From the UHGV virus genome UHGV-0134856: 35,674 nucleotides of DNA; one strand, given 5' to 3'. Below, piece after piece: positions 22,382 through 34,094 of this stretch. A program made the position numbers and the translations under genes. A model generated the notes under the pieces. That model was given only the letters and a program-made list of their open reading frames with translations. It did no database searches and was not told where the DNA came from. The stretch's first letter is position 1. Each line of letters starts with the position of its first letter. The stretch is from a virus.

Positions 22382-22448
22382 TGGTTTCCCCTTTAGCGCA
22401 GCAATTGCTCAGAAATACAGGTATCGGGTGTTCAGTCCGATAACCTGA

Positions 22449-26024: not shown

Positions 26025-26065
26025 TGGTCTTTCCTCGTTGGTTAATTAGCGCTGGTCAGGCGCGG

Positions 26066-28446: not shown

Positions 28447-28667
28447 ATCCCCAATGTTTCAGCAATTTGACGGCATGCCGCCTGATATTCCTCAGGTGAC
28501 AAATTCATTTCGCGGAGTTCTTCTTTCAGTTTTTCATACTGCGCCCAGATAGATAACGCAGCTGCGCGGCGACCTTCGAAAATATCTTCGATGTCTTCCA
28601 TGACGGCCGGCGCGCCATTCAAACGGAAGCCGTTCCGCCAGGTAATGCGGTCAATTGAATTCAGCAT
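28443..28667 (-). CDS. Hypothetical protein (74 aa)
   Basis: Between the CII-analogue and initiator genes; overlaps the initiator start by 4 nt. Confidence 0.45.
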   Translation of the reverse strand: MLNSIDRITWRNGFRLNGAPAVMEDIEDIFEGRRAAALSIWAQYEKLKEELREMNLSPEEYQAACRQIAETLGI

Positions 28668-28688
28668 GTTGGTCTTTCCTCGGTACAG

Positions 28689-29540: not shown

Positions 29541-29996
29541 ATGAGAAAGAAAACCCTTGATGCAGTTGAAACTGACGCAGCTAAACGTCTCCGTGAGATA
29601 TGGAATGCAAAAAAAGTTACTTTGCGCCTTACTCAGGAAAAGGCGGCGGAGGCCCTTGGTTTCAGCACGCAGGCTTCGGTAAGCCATTACCTTAACGGTA
29701 CGACTCCTTTAAACACGGACGCCACCCTCAAATTTGCGTCTCTGTTAGGGGTTAAGCCTGAAGCTATTCGACCAGATCTGGCCGAAATGATGAACTATGT
29801 GCGTAAGTCAGGGGATTACGTCGAGGACAGGACTGGGCCAGGCTGGAAGCTTCTCAGCCCAGAGCATGTGGAACTAATAACACTGTATGACAGACTTCCG
29901 CAAAGCGAAAAAGAAAGGCATTTGTCTGATTTAAAAGAAAAAATACAAGATTTTGATAAGCTTTTCGAAGAGCTTTTAGCCGCCAGAAAACAATAA
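29541..29996 (+). CDS. CI-like repressor (HTH XRE family, no peptidase S24 domain; RacR-like size)
   Basis: HTH LTQEKAAEALGFSTQASVSHYLNG, 151 aa, divergent from cro; candidate PRM (-35 TTAGAA, -10 TAATAT) would give a leaderless mRNA. Confidence 0.8.
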   Translation: MRKKTLDAVETDAAKRLREIWNAKKVTLRLTQEKAAEALGFSTQASVSHYLNGTTPLNTDATLKFASLLGVKPEAIRPDLAEMMNYVRKSGDYVEDRTGPGWKLLSPEHVELITLYDRLPQSEKERHLSDLKEKIQDFDKLFEELLAARKQ

Positions 29997-30016: not shown

Positions 30017-30049
30017 AAAACCCGGCCACCGCGCCGGGATTTTTTTTAT
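30017..30049 (+). terminator. Rho-independent terminator after cI
   Basis: CCCGGC-caccgc-GCCGGG followed by ATTTTTTTTAT. Confidence 0.8.
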
Positions 30050-30085: not shown

Positions 30086-30130
30086 AATTAATATATTAAT
30101 ATTGACCATTTATATTAACGTTATTAATAT
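30086..30130 (+). promoter_or_regulatory. PL-like promoter with operators: -35 TTGACC (30102-30107), 17-bp spacer, -10 TAATAT (30125-30130); operator 19-mer at 30112-30130 plus palindrome AATTAATATATTAATATT at 30086-30103
   Basis: The module TTGAC(C/T)-N17-TAATAT with embedded 19-mer is an inverted copy of the PR module. Confidence 0.65.
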
Positions 30131-30145
30131 CCAGAACATCAACGA

Positions 30146-30184
30146 CGCACTAACCACGCGGCAGTTGTTCAGAAAACGTTCTGA
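30146..30184 (+). promoter_or_regulatory. nut-like element in the PL leader: boxA-like GCACTAACCA, then boxB-like hairpin TCAGAA-AACG-TTCTGA (30169-30184)
   Basis: Position +10 to +47 relative to the predicted PL start; boxA resembles CGCTCTTAA-type; 6-bp stem with tetraloop. Confidence 0.35.
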
Positions 30185-30385
30185 CAGTCTGGAAAGACAG
30201 GCACCAAATTCGCGGGTCGCCGCCAGTACGATGACATGCGGGAAAGACCGCAACGAATCCAAAATTGCTGTGTGTAGTCTTTGCCTCGTCTCCATGAGGG
30301 GCACTTTTTTTCACGGCAATGAATACGAGGAAAGACCAACGGGCATGACCAGCCCTGACAGCCCGGAAAGACGGGCACCAGACGT

Positions 30386-30414
30386 AAAAAAACCCACCGA
30401 GGTGGGCTTCTTTA
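30386..30414 (+). terminator. Intrinsic terminator/attenuator-like hairpin in the PL leader
   Basis: A7 then CCCAC-CGAG-GTGGG then CTTCTTT. Confidence 0.4.
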
Positions 30415-30530
30415 CCCGGGACAGTGACCAAACCGCCCGGAGGTGGTACAGGGGACCAACCCTGTACCGAGGAAAGACCAACGACATGAGCCGCTGATCG
30501 GCTCGAATTATACATCAGTAAGGAGCCGCT

Positions 30531-30854
30531 ATGGAAGCGCTACCCCTGCAGGTAACACTGTACATCCACGTATCTACTAACCCCCACGTCCCTGCACTTT
30601 ACCTGGTTCATACCTGTGACATGTCACAGAACTATCCAGATCTTTACGTACTGCTGGAAACGCGCACTGTTTGCCTTGAGATAAACCAGCCGGAACCGAT
30701 CGACATTATTGGTAAACAGGTTGAACGCCTCCAGAAAGAAAAGGCGTCGATTGTCGATCAGGCTCACCAGCGTGTCGCTTTCATTGAAGACAAGATCCAA
30801 CAGCTGCTGTGCATTGACCATTCCACAATCCAGGAAAGTGATATTCCGTTCTGA
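30531..30854 (+). CDS. Hypothetical early protein (107 aa), coiled-coil C-terminus
   Basis: Excellent RBS TAAGGAG 7 nt upstream; first clear gene of the PL operon. Confidence 0.6.
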   Translation: MEALPLQVTLYIHVSTNPHVPALYLVHTCDMSQNYPDLYVLLETRTVCLEINQPEPIDIIGKQVERLQKEKASIVDQAHQRVAFIEDKIQQLLCIDHSTIQESDIPF

Positions 30855-30861
30855 GGTGTCC

Positions 30862-31107
30862 ATGCAAACTGAAAGGTTCATTGAGAAAGTGATGAGCGCT
30901 GGGTTATCAGTGCTTGAGCATGAAAATAATGGTGATTTCGGAAGTGGCGTTATGCATTTAACCATTGTCGGCGGGGTGAGACGCGTTGAGTTCTACCCTA
31001 CCACCGGCACTGTCTACGCCAATGCAGTTAAAGGGAAATACCCCGTTTTTAAGCAGAAAAAAGCCGGGATCAAAGTAGCTATCCGACTTGCAAAATCAGG
31101 CGCCTGA
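30862..31107 (+). CDS. Hypothetical early protein (81 aa)
   Basis: GAGGTG RBS before Met 30862; the ORF-track N-terminal extension overlaps the previous gene and is rejected. Confidence 0.5.
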   Translation: MQTERFIEKVMSAGLSVLEHENNGDFGSGVMHLTIVGGVRRVEFYPTTGTVYANAVKGKYPVFKQKKAGIKVAIRLAKSGA

Positions 31108-31138
31108 CCTGCGCCAGTAACCGAAGAGGAAAGACCAA

Positions 31139-33911: not shown

Positions 33912-34094
33912 ATGCTGAAACTAACTCTCAAAAGAGGTGATGCGGTACACGTGGTGTTTCCGGATGGAACAAACGGGATCATCGAAGCGCGTAGCCGCAG
34001 CGAACTGGGGTTACATCTTCCGGATAACGTCAAGGTTACACGAGAGAAAGGCGCGTTTCTGAAAGATAACCTGATTAAGCGTAATCAGAATTAA
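33912..34094 (+). CDS. CsrA/RsmA-like small protein (60 aa)
   Basis: MLKLTLKRGD vs CsrA MLILTRRVGE; GLHLPDNVKVTREK vs GVNAPKEVSVHREE (the Gly, Pro, V-x-V and R-E positions line up with the CsrA RNA-binding segment); same length as CsrA (61 aa). Confidence 0.45.
   Translation: MLKLTLKRGDAVHVVFPDGTNGIIEARSRSELGLHLPDNVKVTREKGAFLKDNLIKRNQN

What the first reader, a model, noticed from the sequence alone, without database searches (positions are those of the whole stretch)
30131..30530. 400-bp repeat-rich, apparently non-coding PL leader: nut-like boxA/boxB, attenuator hairpin, and five GGAAAGAC(C) motifs
No convincing gene lies between the predicted PL start (about 30137) and the first well-supported gene (30531). 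The interval holds a boxA-like GCACTAACCA followed after 12 nt by a 6-bp/tetraloop hairpin (30169-30184), and an intrinsic terminator-like hairpin with a U-rich tail (30386-30414). The motif GGAAAGAC occurs at 30191, 30241, 30329, 30365 and 30471, in two subtypes (GGAAAGAC-GGCACCA x2; CGAGGAAAGACCAACG x2). The same GAGGAAAGACC string is the Shine-Dalgarno context of the erf-fusion (31128), the xis-like gene (34296) and the 225-aa gene (26027-26040, minus strand). Here two copies are followed at an over-long distance by ATGs opening only a 50-aa Arg-rich ORF (30345-30497) and a 3-codon mini-ORF (30486-30497). This looks like an antitermination or attenuation leader, possibly N-independent (put-like) or using a tiny Arg-rich N analogue. 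The GGA-rich repeats could also be targets of the CsrA-like protein encoded downstream.
Basis: partly seen in the sequence, partly recalled or inferred. Interest (0 to 1): 0.6.

Follow-up and report, generated by a model that had tools for sequence, protein, structure and literature searches.

The report
Phage early leader with RprA-like sRNA
The 400 bases after this prophage's early-left promoter are a conserved, folded, non-coding RNA leader containing a near-exact copy of the active 3' half of the host stress-regulating small RNA RprA, so the phage probably makes a mimic of a host regulator when it is induced.

Summary
The interval is real, non-coding and far from random, but its main feature was missed. 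Window 30263-30311 aligns end to end with the last 47 nt of E. coli RprA, the RNase E-processed, functional form "RprAproc". 23 of 23 seed bases are identical, followed by a GC hairpin and U7. This, not 30386-30414, is the leader's true intrinsic terminator.

The leader belongs to a family of about 100 distinct prophage leaders (350-1330 nt) in Enterobacteriaceae. None has an annotated gene, and 89 of 98 carry the RprA-like module.

GGAAAGAC splits into two classes:
- Three hairpins G[GAAAGA]C with covarying stems.
- Two stemless ribosome-binding-site cassettes, GAGGAAAGACCAA.

Two further hairpins have GACCAA loops. An anti-SD segment can pair with either the first gene's Shine-Dalgarno or an upstream copy of it.

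- The boxA-like match is at chance level.
- The "boxB" loop varies among relatives.
- A covariance model of HK022/HK639 put finds nothing.
- The 50-aa ORF is not conserved.
- The 60-aa protein is not demonstrably CsrA.

The same module sits downstream of cI-type repressors in other leader families, including cultured phage LLS, and in virulent Erwinia phages.

Best reading: a leader-derived, Hfq-type RprA mimic, plus still unexplained conserved RNA elements.

The parts
29541..29996 (+). CI-type HTH repressor gene (151 aa), same strand as the leader. Context only.
   Evidence: Pfam HTH_31/HTH_3 and PHROG transcriptional repressor families. Followed by a terminator at 30021-30038 plus T8.
30102..30130 (+). 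Predicted early-left promoter (TTGACC, 17-nt spacer, TAATAT) within AT-rich operator-like repeats.
   Evidence: Promoter scan. Sequences upstream of 30137 differ between relatives while sequences downstream are invariant.
30137..30185 (+). Invariant 5' element of the leader. Stem-loop I is 30140-30167 (CAAC..CGC / GCG..GUUG, loop ACUAACCAC). Stem-loop II is 30169-30184 (UCAGAA/UUCUGA, variable loop).
   Evidence: Fold. Identical or nearly identical in about 120 loci with different immunity regions. Loop II varies (AACG, AAACG, ACAG, AG...) while its stem is fixed. No match to the put model.
30187..30202 (+). Hairpin H1: GUCUG[GAAAGA]CAGGC, preceded by UGACA.
   Evidence: Fold -6.8 kcal/mol, z = -3.0. 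Stems covary across the family (GUCUG/CAGGC, GCCCG/CGGGC, GUCCG/CGGGC, AUUCG/CGAAU).
30237..30252 (+). Hairpin H2: UGCGG[GAAAGA]CCGCA, preceded by UGACA. Aligned by Rfam to the RprA seed hairpin.
   Evidence: Fold -8.6 kcal/mol, z = -4.1. Covariation. Rfam alignment.
30253..30262 (+). AACGAAUCCA linker. AACGAAU matches RprA nt 53-59 and is complementary to the rpoS leader.
   Evidence: Duplex of 30240-30275 with rpoS -135..-89: -22.9 kcal/mol against -12.3 +/- 3.0 for shuffles (2 of 300 as good). RprA gives -28.8 and DsrA -26.4, in the same register.
30263..30285 (+). RprAproc-like seed AAUUGCUGUGUGUAGUCUUUGCC, 23 of 23 identical to E. coli RprA nt 59-81.
   Evidence: Local alignment. RprA sequence verified 100% in 5422 E. 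coli genomes. Rfam RF00034 scores 42.3 bits, E = 0.001. Unique in the window.
30282..30311 (+). Intrinsic terminator of the RprA-like module: stem 30282-30303, U7 30305-30311.
   Evidence: Terminator scan and fold. 89 of 89 family members with the core have a T5+ run within 40 nt. 103 of 105 distinct modules have hairpin plus T5+, with 49 different hairpin sequences.
30327..30339 (+). RBS-type cassette 1, GAGGAAAGACCAA (no stem), followed by the non-conserved ORF 30345-30497.
30361..30376 (+). Hairpin H3: GCCCG[GAAAGA]CGGGC, preceded by CUGACA.
   Evidence: Fold -11.0 kcal/mol, z = -3.9. Covariation GCCCG/CGGGC versus GCCGG/CCGGC.
30384..30415 (.). Conserved stable hairpin (core CCCAC-CGAG-GUGGG, 30393-30406).
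   Evidence: The stem covaries but the U tail is not conserved. The minus strand has T7 and only weak isrB/RNAI-like Rfam hits, below threshold.
30416..30440 (+). Hairpin with GACCAA loop (30426-30431).
   Evidence: Fold. Outer stems covary: CCGGG/CCCGG, CCAGCGGA/UCCGCCAGG, CCGAACGG/CCAUUCGG.
30446..30467 (+). 8-bp hairpin GUACAGGG[GACCAA]CCCUGUAC.
   Evidence: Fold -14.4 kcal/mol, z = -3.7. Five covarying stem versions: ACAGGG, ACAAGC, GUAGGG, ACAAGU, GCAGGG.
30469..30497 (+). RBS-type cassette 2 (30469-30481) plus 3-codon mini-ORF AUG AGC CGC UGA (30486-30497). Overlaps segment 1 (GAGCCG, 30488-30493).
   Evidence: In relatives the mini-ORF is absent, 3 codons, 10 codons or longer.
30499..30528 (+). 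Anti-SD segment 2 (CGGCUC, 30499-30504), which can pair either with segment 1 or with the Shine-Dalgarno region of the 107-aa gene (GGAGCCG, 30522-30528).
   Evidence: Alternative folds. 34 of 39 distinct tails keep 6 of 6 pairs between segments 2 and 3, and 27 of 36 have a helix of at least 7 bp between segments 1 and 2. L098-type tails have compensating GGAGCUG/CAGCUC.
30531..30854 (+). First gene of the operon (107 aa, PHROG 2479, unknown function). Context only.
   Evidence: Present in 66 of 66 family loci.

Best explanation
Window 30137-30530 is the untranslated leader of the repressor-controlled early-left operon of a temperate enterobacterial phage. It is a modular, structured RNA.

Its best-defined module is 30240-30311, and above all 30263-30311. 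This is a phage copy of the host small RNA RprA without RprA's 5' stem-loop and without its own promoter.

Proposed mechanism:
1. When the repressor is lost, transcription from the promoter at 30102-30130 starts near 30137.
2. A share of transcripts ends at the intrinsic terminator 30282-30311. This gives a leader RNA of about 175 nt with a hairpin plus U7 3' end of the kind Hfq binds.
3. As with RprA, RNase E cutting at the conserved A/AUU boundary (about 30262/30263) would release an RNA of about 50 nt with the same seed as RprAproc.
4. This RNA acts in trans on the host RprA/RprAproc regulon. The uncut form may also pair with the rpoS leader.
5. Transcripts that read through carry the downstream leader. 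There an anti-SD segment, an SD-like decoy and a short upstream ORF set translation of the first gene.

What is shown: sequence homology, conservation, hairpin covariation, the terminator, and the absence of a conserved ORF.

What is inferred: termination efficiency, RNase E processing, Hfq binding, trans-activity, and the roles of the invariant 5' element and of the GAAAGA and GACCAA hexaloop hairpins. The most plausible roles for those elements are helping RNA polymerase pass the terminator, or binding a phage or host protein.
For: - Rfam RprA is the top hit in the region: 42.3 bits, E = 0.001. Relatives score 46.8 and 50.2 bits.
- The local alignment runs from RprA nt 59 to nt 105, which is exactly the 47-nt RprAproc, and begins with 23 identical bases. 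RprAproc is reported as a functional in vivo species (PMC9262595). The RNase E cleavage that releases a short form is reported in PMC6202311.
- 89 of 98 unique leaders, found through an unrelated 5' pattern, carry the core with at most 3 substitutions, and all 89 have a T5+ run.
- Information content falls from about 2 bits to about 0 within 3 nt upstream of the RprAproc 5' end. The terminator exists in 49 different covarying versions. An invariant seed with a free-varying terminator is the usual signature of a trans-acting sRNA.
- The same module lies a median of 612 nt downstream of CI-type repressors in 62 of 66 loci with unrelated leaders. It is also in cultured phage LLS between the repressor and the first early-left gene, and directly after thymidylate synthase in virulent Erwinia phages.
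- No promoter-like site lies between 30131 and 30312.
- Predicted rpoS-leader pairing is -22.9 kcal/mol, with 2 of 300 shuffles as good.
- Non-coding status.
- Hairpin covariation.
- SD switch.
Against: - The Rfam score is below the curated threshold of 70 bits. RprA's 5' stem-loop, proposed in PMC6202311 as a recognition element for RNase E, is absent.
- No expression data exist, so the module could serve only as a terminator.
- 9 of 98 leaders lack the core. Some have a diverged, terminator-less version (L025, L065, L069). Others have a different seed (L111). So the RprA seed is not indispensable to the leader.
- rpoS pairing is not predicted for the long-insert relatives.
- The commonest family variant has GUCUUGGCC rather than GUCUUUGCC.
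- The second viral scan required an exact core, so invariance within that set is partly due to how the loci were found.
- Nothing computed here explains the 5' element or the hexaloop hairpins.
Confidence: 0.55

Rival explanations
1. RNA-mediated processive antitermination, put-like in function. The invariant 5' element (30137-30185, perhaps with H1) folds on the nascent transcript, binds RNA polymerase and lets it read through the terminator at 30282-30311 and later ones. This can coexist with the sRNA reading.
For: - The element starts at the transcript's 5' end, as putL does (PMC9378689).
- It is the most invariant part of about 120 leaders whose operators differ.
- It forms two adjacent stem-loops.
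- A strong terminator lies between the promoter and every gene of the operon.
- No N-like gene is present.
- The authors of phage LLS, which also carries the RprA-like terminator in its leader, note that it has no N homolog and guess at a put-like mechanism (PMC12315714).
Against: - The covariance model of the three known put RNAs gives -1.3 bits at 30138-30185 and no hit in relatives.
- The U28 equivalent of put's NANNAT is C here.
- There is no counterpart in the rightward operon.
- Other leader families with the same terminator module lack this 5' element.
- Some family members have no terminator in the leader.
- The stems are invariant, so covariation cannot support them.
Confidence: 0.25
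2. Protein-binding array. The UGACA + G[GAAAGA]C hairpins, the GACCAA-loop hairpins and the GAGGAAAGACCAA start-site cassettes are binding sites for one RNA-binding protein. This could be the phage's 60-aa CsrA-like protein, host CsrA, or an arginine-rich N-like factor. That protein would control translation or termination of early genes.
For: - The motif is strongly over-represented and strand-specific.
- Loops are invariant while stems covary. That pattern is typical of protein-recognised hairpins.
- GAAAGA and GACCAA resemble lambda (GAAGA, GAAAA) and P22 (GACAA) boxB loops with one extra base (own knowledge).
- The same string forms the ribosome-binding site of at least four early genes.
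- The 60-aa protein has a five-strand plus short helix pattern and an in-register xxGxxxPxxVxVxRE match to CsrA. It is present in 66 of 66 family loci.
Against: - The CsrA assignment is not significant: 12.7 bits against a cut-off of 27, hhalign probability 2%, and no CsrA in the Foldseek PDB search.
- The co-occurrence is uninformative because the whole operon co-occurs.
- There are no hairpin-type copies in the rightward operon.
- No conserved arginine-rich ORF exists.
Confidence: 0.15
3. Lambda-type nut site with attenuation at 30386-30414.
For: Position after the promoter. A hairpin 12 nt after a boxA-like string. A stable hairpin at 30393-30406.
Against: - The boxA match is at chance level.
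- The hairpin loop is variable.
- There is no N-like gene and no nutR equivalent.
- The U tail of 30386-30414 is not conserved, and the fold is not better than shuffles, z = -0.85.
Confidence: 0.05
4. Decayed gene starts. The leader is a hot spot for gene insertion and loss. The cassettes and hairpins are relics of lost genes, and the RprA-like piece is merely a borrowed terminator.
For: - Relatives carry real genes inserted after the 5' element or after H1, each with the same GAGGAAAGACCAA start cassette (L088, L012, L015, L033, L102).
- Leader length varies from 350 to 1330 nt.
Against: - Relics would not keep invariant loops with covarying stems.
- They would not keep a 23-nt seed identical to RprA across unrelated leader families and in virulent phages.
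- A borrowed terminator needs only the hairpin and U run, yet those parts vary while the seed does not.
Confidence: 0.08
5. A small protein is encoded: the 50-aa ORF 30345-30497, or the minus-strand ORFs.
For: An ATG follows an RBS-type cassette. The ORF is kept in the window's closest relatives.
Against: - Across the family the ORF is 2-69 aa, in two frames, and has no ATG in 15 of 62 cases.
- Single-base indels occur throughout.
- No family hits.
- PGAP annotates nothing.
Confidence: 0.03

Closest known systems
RprA (Rfam RF00034), especially its RNase E-processed 47-nt form RprAproc
   Same: - The seed AAUUGCUGUGUGUAGUCUUUGCC is identical.
- It has a GC hairpin plus U7 terminator.
- The conserved block starts at the RprAproc 5' end.
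- In the window, the upstream AACGAAU and a GGAAA-containing hairpin sit in the same order as in RprA.
- It is predicted to pair with the same stretch of the rpoS leader.
   Different: - It has no promoter of its own and no RprA 5' stem-loop.
- It is embedded in a phage operon leader under repressor control.
- It scores 42 bits against the curated 70.
- It is carried by phages rather than sitting at the chromosomal ydiK-ydiL locus.
DicF of the Qin prophage dicBF operon
   Same: An Hfq-type sRNA embedded in a repressor-controlled prophage early operon and released from a longer transcript (PMC10448788, PMC5069750).
   Different: - DicF lies between genes and has a seed of its own (targets include ftsZ).
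- The module here lies in the 5' leader and copies the seed of a core host sRNA.
IsrK of Salmonella Gifsy-1
   Same: A promoter-proximal terminator yields a short sRNA, while read-through yields the mRNA (PMC4825925).
   Different: IsrK acts on its own read-through transcript. Here complementarity between the seed and the leader's own translation start region is not above shuffles (2 of 32 combinations).
HK022/HK639 put RNAs
   Same: A structured RNA directly after the early-left promoter, in a phage without an N gene, followed by terminators.
   Different: No sequence or structure match to the put model. About 50 nt rather than 70. No rightward copy.
Prophage anti-sRNAs AgvB/AsxR and StxS of EHEC phages
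   Same: Phage-borne Hfq-binding RNAs that interfere with core sRNA networks. StxS activates rpoS (PMC4104026; StxS from own knowledge).
   Different: Those mimic mRNA targets or have unrelated sequences, and lie in the late region. This one mimics the sRNA itself and lies in the early-left leader.

Membership tests
RprA (RF00034) | Covariance-model score at or above the curated gathering score (70 bits) | tested here: not met
   42.3 bits, E = 0.001 at 30199-30312. Relatives score 46.8 and 50.2 bits.
RprA (RF00034) | Conserved 3' part (RprAproc: seed, terminator hairpin, U tract) | tested here: met
   RprA nt 59-105 aligns to 30263-30311, with 23 of 23 seed bases identical, then a hairpin and U7.
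RprA (RF00034) | 5' stem-loop (nt 1-30) | tested here: not met
   Absent in the window; the Rfam alignment skips it. A weak equivalent exists in L001-type relatives.
RprA (RF00034) | Own (RcsB-dependent) promoter | tested here: not met
   No sigma-70-like site between 30131 and 30312. An RcsB box was not searched for.
RprA (RF00034) | Pairing with the rpoS leader | tested here: inconclusive
   Predicted -22.9 kcal/mol against -12.3 +/- 3.0 for shuffles, in the same register as RprA and DsrA. Not predicted for long-insert relatives. Prediction only.
RprA (RF00034) | Hfq binding and RNase E processing | not testable with these tools
   Needs co-immunoprecipitation and Northern blots in wild-type versus temperature-sensitive RNase E (rne-ts) strains.
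put antiterminator RNA (HK022, HK639) | Match to the put sequence/structure profile | tested here: not met
   Model R1 recovers the three put RNAs at 66-98 bits. It gives -1.3 bits at 30138-30185 and nothing in relatives. The model rests on only three sequences.
put antiterminator RNA (HK022, HK639) | Position just downstream of the early-left promoter | tested here: met
   The element starts at the predicted transcript start, 30137.
put antiterminator RNA (HK022, HK639) | Terminator read-through that depends on the RNA polymerase beta' zinc-binding domain | not testable with these tools
   Needs in vitro transcription or rpoC mutants.
lambda-type nut site / N antitermination | boxA consensus CGCUCUU(U)A | tested here: not met
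   Best match is 6 of 8. Such matches number 266 in the window against 306 expected.
lambda-type nut site / N antitermination | boxB hairpin with a conserved loop | tested here: not met
   The loop of 30169-30184 varies in sequence and length. The G[GAAAGA]C hairpins do have invariant loops, but they are multi-copy and lack a boxA.
lambda-type nut site / N antitermination | Arginine-rich N gene after nutL, and a nutR copy after cro | tested here: not met
   No conserved ORF. No copy of the 5' element or of hairpin-type motifs in the rightward operon.
CsrA protein / CsrB-type target RNA | The protein belongs to the CsrA family | tested here: inconclusive
   Pfam CsrA 12.7 bits (cut-off 27), E = 0.13. 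hhalign probability 2%. AF2 model pLDDT 88.5, five strands plus a short helix. No CsrA in the Foldseek PDB search. A monomer model of a domain-swapped dimer may hide a match.
CsrA protein / CsrB-type target RNA | Many GGA motifs presented in hairpin loops | tested here: inconclusive
   Three hairpins carry GGA across the stem-loop junction. The conserved unit (GGAAAGAC) is longer than GGA.
Intrinsic terminator / attenuator at 30386-30414 | GC-rich hairpin directly followed by a conserved U tract | tested here: not met
   The hairpin is conserved. The tail is CTTCTTTACC here and CAGTTACCCC in relatives.

The most novel reading that the evidence does not exclude
Phages of enterobacteria have repeatedly captured the processed, active half of the host sRNA RprA. 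This includes temperate phages with at least four unrelated early-left leader types, and virulent N4-like Erwinia phages. They place it where it is made at the very start of infection or induction, so that a host envelope-stress/RpoS regulator is counterfeited on demand. In this family the mimic is embedded in a new kind of leader. Its invariant 5' element and GANNRA-type hexaloop hairpins would form a previously undescribed RNA system for passing the mimic's own terminator.
Probability: 0.3. Interest if true: 0.85.

Novelty: new variant of a known kind. Interest (0 to 1): 0.68.

Why it matters
Phage-encoded small RNAs are known, but a phage copy of the seed and terminator of a core, well-studied host sRNA has not turned up in the literature I could search.

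If it is active, phages would switch on part of the RprA programme independently of the host's Rcs signal. That programme covers RpoS, biofilm, nitrate-response and conjugation control.

It would also give a natural experiment on what the poorly understood RprAproc form does. The phage copies keep exactly that part and nothing else.

The module is present in hundreds of E. coli genomes and is never annotated.

It is directly testable. Phage LLS grows on E. coli K-12 and carries the module in the same position.

The remaining leader elements are a well-supported but unexplained RNA family. They are relevant to how N-less lambdoid phages express their early-left genes.

Tried and rejected
1. put homology. 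A covariance model from HK022 putL, HK022 putR and HK639 putL finds nothing.
2. boxA. The match is at chance level.
3. The 50-aa ORF and other leader ORFs. No family hits and not conserved.
4. CsrA identity of the 60-aa protein. Pfam, PDB sequence search, hhalign, an AF2 model and Foldseek are all non-significant.
5. Co-occurrence of that protein with the leader. 66 of 66, but uninformative because the whole operon is syntenic.
6. IsrK-like action of the seed on the leader's own translation start. The window gives -13.4 against -10.6 +/- 2.4 kcal/mol, and only 2 of 32 family combinations beat 95% of shuffles.
7. Complementarity of the seed's GUCUUU to the AAAGAC of the repeated motif. It is only 6 nt and is weakened in the commonest variant (GUCUUG), so I kept it as a lead only.
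8. Whole-leader duplex prediction against a long rpoS leader. It is meaningless because of long interior loops. I redid it on the short target region.
9. RNAalifold on a MAFFT alignment that included long-insert leaders. The alignment was too gappy. I replaced it with loop-anchored stem counts and a length-restricted alignment.
10. A tRNA in the long inserts. ARAGORN finds none.
11. The RprA core as a phage attachment site. It lies next to the repressor gene, not the integrase, in 62 of 66 other loci.
12. A second copy of the 5' element at 22398-22415. It has 3 mismatches, is on the wrong strand and has no flanking similarity.
Full report
**Setting**

The window is a temperate enterobacterial phage or prophage.
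- A CI-type HTH repressor gene (29541-29996, +) ends in a strong terminator (30021-30038 plus T8).
- An AT-rich region follows, with a sigma-70-like promoter: TTGACC 30102-30107, 17-nt spacer, TAATAT 30125-30130.
- The operon to the right encodes a 107-aa protein, an 81-aa protein, a 737-aa exonuclease-family protein, a Gp157/Gam-like protein, a 60-aa protein, an excisionase and an integrase.

**Check of the observation**

- GGAAAGAC occurs at the five stated positions. The window holds 9 copies against 0.8 expected, with none of 100 shuffles reaching 9. All copies are on the transcribed strand.
- GAGGAAAGACCAA precedes four gene starts.
- The hairpin 30169-30184 and the hairpin at 30393-30406 fold as described.
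- The 'boxA-like' string matches CGCTCTTA at only 6 of 8 positions. Matches of that quality are no more frequent than chance: 266 against 306 expected.

**Relatives**

The leader has relatives in 445 of 5426 complete E. coli genomes and in two phage records labelled Stenotrophomonas. In six E. coli relatives, PGAP annotates no gene in the corresponding 0.5-1.0 kb.

Scanning IMG/VR for 18 invariant bases of the 5' end gave 113 loci. These yield 98 distinct complete leaders of 350-1330 nt. Among species-representative genomes, the loci whose flanking sequence I confirmed as family members are from Citrobacter and Raoultella. The other plausible matches, judged by record title only, are from Escherichia, Enterobacter and Pseudescherichia. 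The remaining matches to the 18-mer are from unrelated phyla at about the number expected by chance.

Alignments show that similarity begins exactly at 30137, although the operator regions differ. The leader is built from constant modules separated by variable inserts.

**Not coding**

- No leader ORF hits Pfam or PHROGs.
- Single-base indels are frequent.
- The ORF that follows the first cassette is 2-69 aa long, lies in two different frames, and has no ATG in 15 of 62 distinct leaders.

**The main feature: an RprA-like module**

An Rfam scan of the region puts RprA first, at 42.3 bits and E = 0.001 for 30199-30312. This is below the curated 70 bits. Relatives score 46.8 and 50.2 bits.

I confirmed the E. 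coli RprA sequence as 100% identical in 5422 genomes. A local alignment then matches RprA nt 59-105 to 30263-30311. It consists of 23 consecutive identities (AATTGCTGTGTGTAGTCTTTGCC), a similar GC hairpin, and U7.

Nt 59-105 is precisely the 47-nt processed form RprAproc. That form coexists with full-length RprA in vivo and regulates narP on its own (PMC9262595). It arises by RNase E cleavage (PMC6202311).

The hairpin plus U7 (30282-30311) is the only strong plus-strand terminator in the leader.

Family-wide evidence:
- Of 98 unique leaders found through the unrelated 5' pattern, 89 carry the core with at most 3 substitutions. All 89 have a T5+ run within 40 nt.
- Over 105 distinct modules, information content drops from about 2 bits to about 0 within three bases upstream of the RprAproc 5' end.
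- The terminator occurs in 49 different hairpin versions.
- The combination of invariant seed, sharp 5' boundary and free-varying terminator is what one expects of a trans-acting sRNA, not of a mere terminator.

In the window and other short-form leaders, the sequence just upstream (hairpin H2 plus AACGAAU) continues the resemblance to RprA. It is predicted to pair with the rpoS leader segment used by RprA and DsrA: -22.9 kcal/mol against -12.3 +/- 3.0 for shuffles, with 2 of 300 shuffles as good. RprA gives -28.8 and DsrA -26.4. Long-insert relatives lack this pairing.

No promoter-like site lies inside the leader. The module would therefore be made only when the early-left promoter fires.

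**The module is not confined to this leader family**

A second IMG/VR scan with the core found 78 further loci without the 5' element or any GGAAAGAC. Their upstream sequences fall into several unrelated types.

In 62 of the 66 loci with enough flank, a CI-type repressor lies upstream on the same strand, a median of 612 nt away. Nuclease or recombination genes lie downstream.

Named phages also carry it:
- The cultured E. coli K-12 lambdoid phage LLS, between its repressor and first early-left gene.
- Phages Eeyore and Flotzy, and the vB_EcoM-606R2 group.
- Virulent N4-like Erwinia phages, where it directly follows thymidylate synthase.

In every record whose annotation I inspected, none names it as an RNA. 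Caveat: this second set was selected by an exact core match, so its invariance is partly by construction.

**The other modules**

Anchoring on the loops shows two motif classes.

*GAAAGA loops.* 49 of 130 distinct GAAAGA instances have at least 4 consecutive pairs flanking the loop, against about 7 expected when flanks are re-paired.
- At least ten stem versions occur.
- The closing pair is always G-C.
- UGACA usually lies upstream.
- In the window these hairpins are H1, H2 and H3.

The remaining instances are AG-GAAAGA-CCA(A/T/C)G with no stem. These are the ribosome-binding-site cassettes.

*GACCAA loops.* These form hairpins with up to 8 covarying pairs. The window has two, at 30416-30440 and 30446-30467.

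On a length-restricted alignment of 52 distinct 3' halves:
- 97.5% of cells in the predicted pairs are paired, against 26-51% when partners are slid.
- 8 pairs change on both sides.

*The switch at the 3' end.* Segment 2 (CGGCUC, 30499-30504) can pair with the Shine-Dalgarno region (GGAGCCG, 30522-28) or with an upstream copy of it (GAGCCG, 30488-93). That upstream copy overlaps the 3-codon mini-ORF.
- 34 of 39 distinct tails keep all six pairs between segments 2 and 3.
- 27 of 36 have a helix of at least 7 bp between segments 1 and 2.
- A divergent tail type has compensating GGAGCUG/CAGCUC.

I read this as a translational switch for the first gene, driven by the short upstream ORF. This is inference.

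*The 5' element.* It forms two stem-loops. The loop of the second varies while its stem does not. Because the stems never vary, covariation says nothing about them.

- *nut/N:* rejected. The boxA match is at chance, the loop is variable, there is no N-like ORF, and there is no rightward copy.
- *put family:* a model from the three available put RNAs recovers them at 66-98 bits but gives -1.3 bits here. A put-like function remains possible and is my second hypothesis. It would explain why the most invariant element sits at the transcript start, ahead of a strong terminator, in a phage without N.
- *Attenuator at 30386-30414:* the hairpin is conserved but its U tail is not.
- *CsrA:* not established. 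Its perfect co-occurrence is uninformative.

**Comparison with known systems**

The module works like, and is partly homologous to, RprA. It fails the curated threshold and lacks the 5' stem-loop and promoter, so I do not file it as an rprA gene. I call it a phage-borne RprAproc mimic.

In its mode of production it resembles DicF (an sRNA inside a repressor-controlled prophage operon) and IsrK (a terminated leader sRNA plus a read-through mRNA). An IsrK-like action on its own mRNA is not supported.

Literature searches found no description of RprA-like RNAs in phages, nor of the leader's signature sequences. That search covers open-access papers only.

**Verdict**

The finding is real and more interesting than described. 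It is a conserved, unannotated, structured leader family whose centrepiece is a phage copy of the active half of a host sRNA.

| Aspect | Status |
|---|---|
| Homology, conservation and structure | Shown |
| sRNA biogenesis and trans-activity | Inferred |
| Roles of the 5' element and hexaloop hairpins | Unexplained |

Noticed in passing
L163-L240 (IMG/VR); L241 2499-2548 (phage LLS, PQ299149); L242 1500-1546 (Erwinia phage Ea9-2): The RprAproc-like seed plus terminator occurs in at least four other, unrelated leader types downstream of CI-type repressors. It also occurs in cultured lambdoid phage LLS and, right after thymidylate synthase, in virulent N4-like Erwinia phages. In every record whose annotation I inspected it is never labelled as an RNA (no feature, or only a hypothetical protein, lies under the match).
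   Followed up: partly
L003 2600-3050; L001 4100-4300; L007 2470-2770 (long-form leaders): Inserts of about 340 nt of two unrelated types sit between hairpin H2 and the RprA-like core. They have no Rfam hit at E <= 0.1 and no annotated gene. The L007-type insert ends in a tRNA-like T-arm and acceptor (GGTTCGATTCCGGGCGCC), but ARAGORN finds no tRNA.
   Followed up: partly
L088, L012, L015, L033, L044, L082, L102, L010, L050, L145 (leaders of relatives): Extra genes are inserted directly after the 5' element or after H1. Several use the same GAGGAAAGACCAA(T)ATG start cassette. The leader is a hot spot for gene insertion.
   Followed up: no
L111 leader, about 410-465: The sRNA-like module is present with a different seed (CCATTGCATTGTTCTATTTGCC plus hairpin plus T6). 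L025, L065, L069 and L098 have a diverged, terminator-less version (TTTTGCTGTTGCGATAGCGTTCCC). The seed position seems to evolve.
   Followed up: no
window 33912-34094 (+): A 60-aa protein (PHROG 2482, unknown function) gives a confident AF2 model of five strands and a short helix. It has an in-register but non-significant resemblance to CsrA. It occurs only in Enterobacteriaceae prophages and always with this operon.
   Followed up: yes
window 28669-28681 (-): A fourth perfect GAGGAAAGACCAA cassette lies in front of the 74-aa gene starting at 28667.
   Followed up: yes
window 30385-30475 (-): On the minus strand the hairpin 30393-30406 is followed by T7. The region gives weak, sub-threshold Rfam hits (isrB 26.3 bits, RNAI 22.2 bits). 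No minus-strand promoter was predicted, and the T run is not conserved in relatives.
   Followed up: partly
L001 (OM816835.1) and OM816834.1: Two phages deposited as Stenotrophomonas maltophilia phages (BUCT708, BUCT709) carry this leader at 79-88% identity, together with the whole operon. Every other family member whose host could be assigned is from Enterobacteriaceae, so the host label looks doubtful.
   Followed up: no
E. coli genomes, e.g. NZ_JBRBPZ010000006.1 31070-31123: About 94 extra copies of the RprA 3' half occur beyond the chromosomal rprA gene in complete E. coli genomes. Three are on plasmids. The one extra copy shown in the output (NZ_JBRBPZ010000006.1) has no annotated feature under it.
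   Followed up: no
window 30147-30162 with 30526-30541: The minimum-free-energy fold of the whole leader pairs the 5' element (CCACGCGG, GC.C) with the start region of the 107-aa gene (CCGCUAUGG, GCGC), closing the leader into a ring. The whole-leader fold has z = -5.3. Both sides are nearly invariant, so this cannot be tested by covariation.
   Followed up: no
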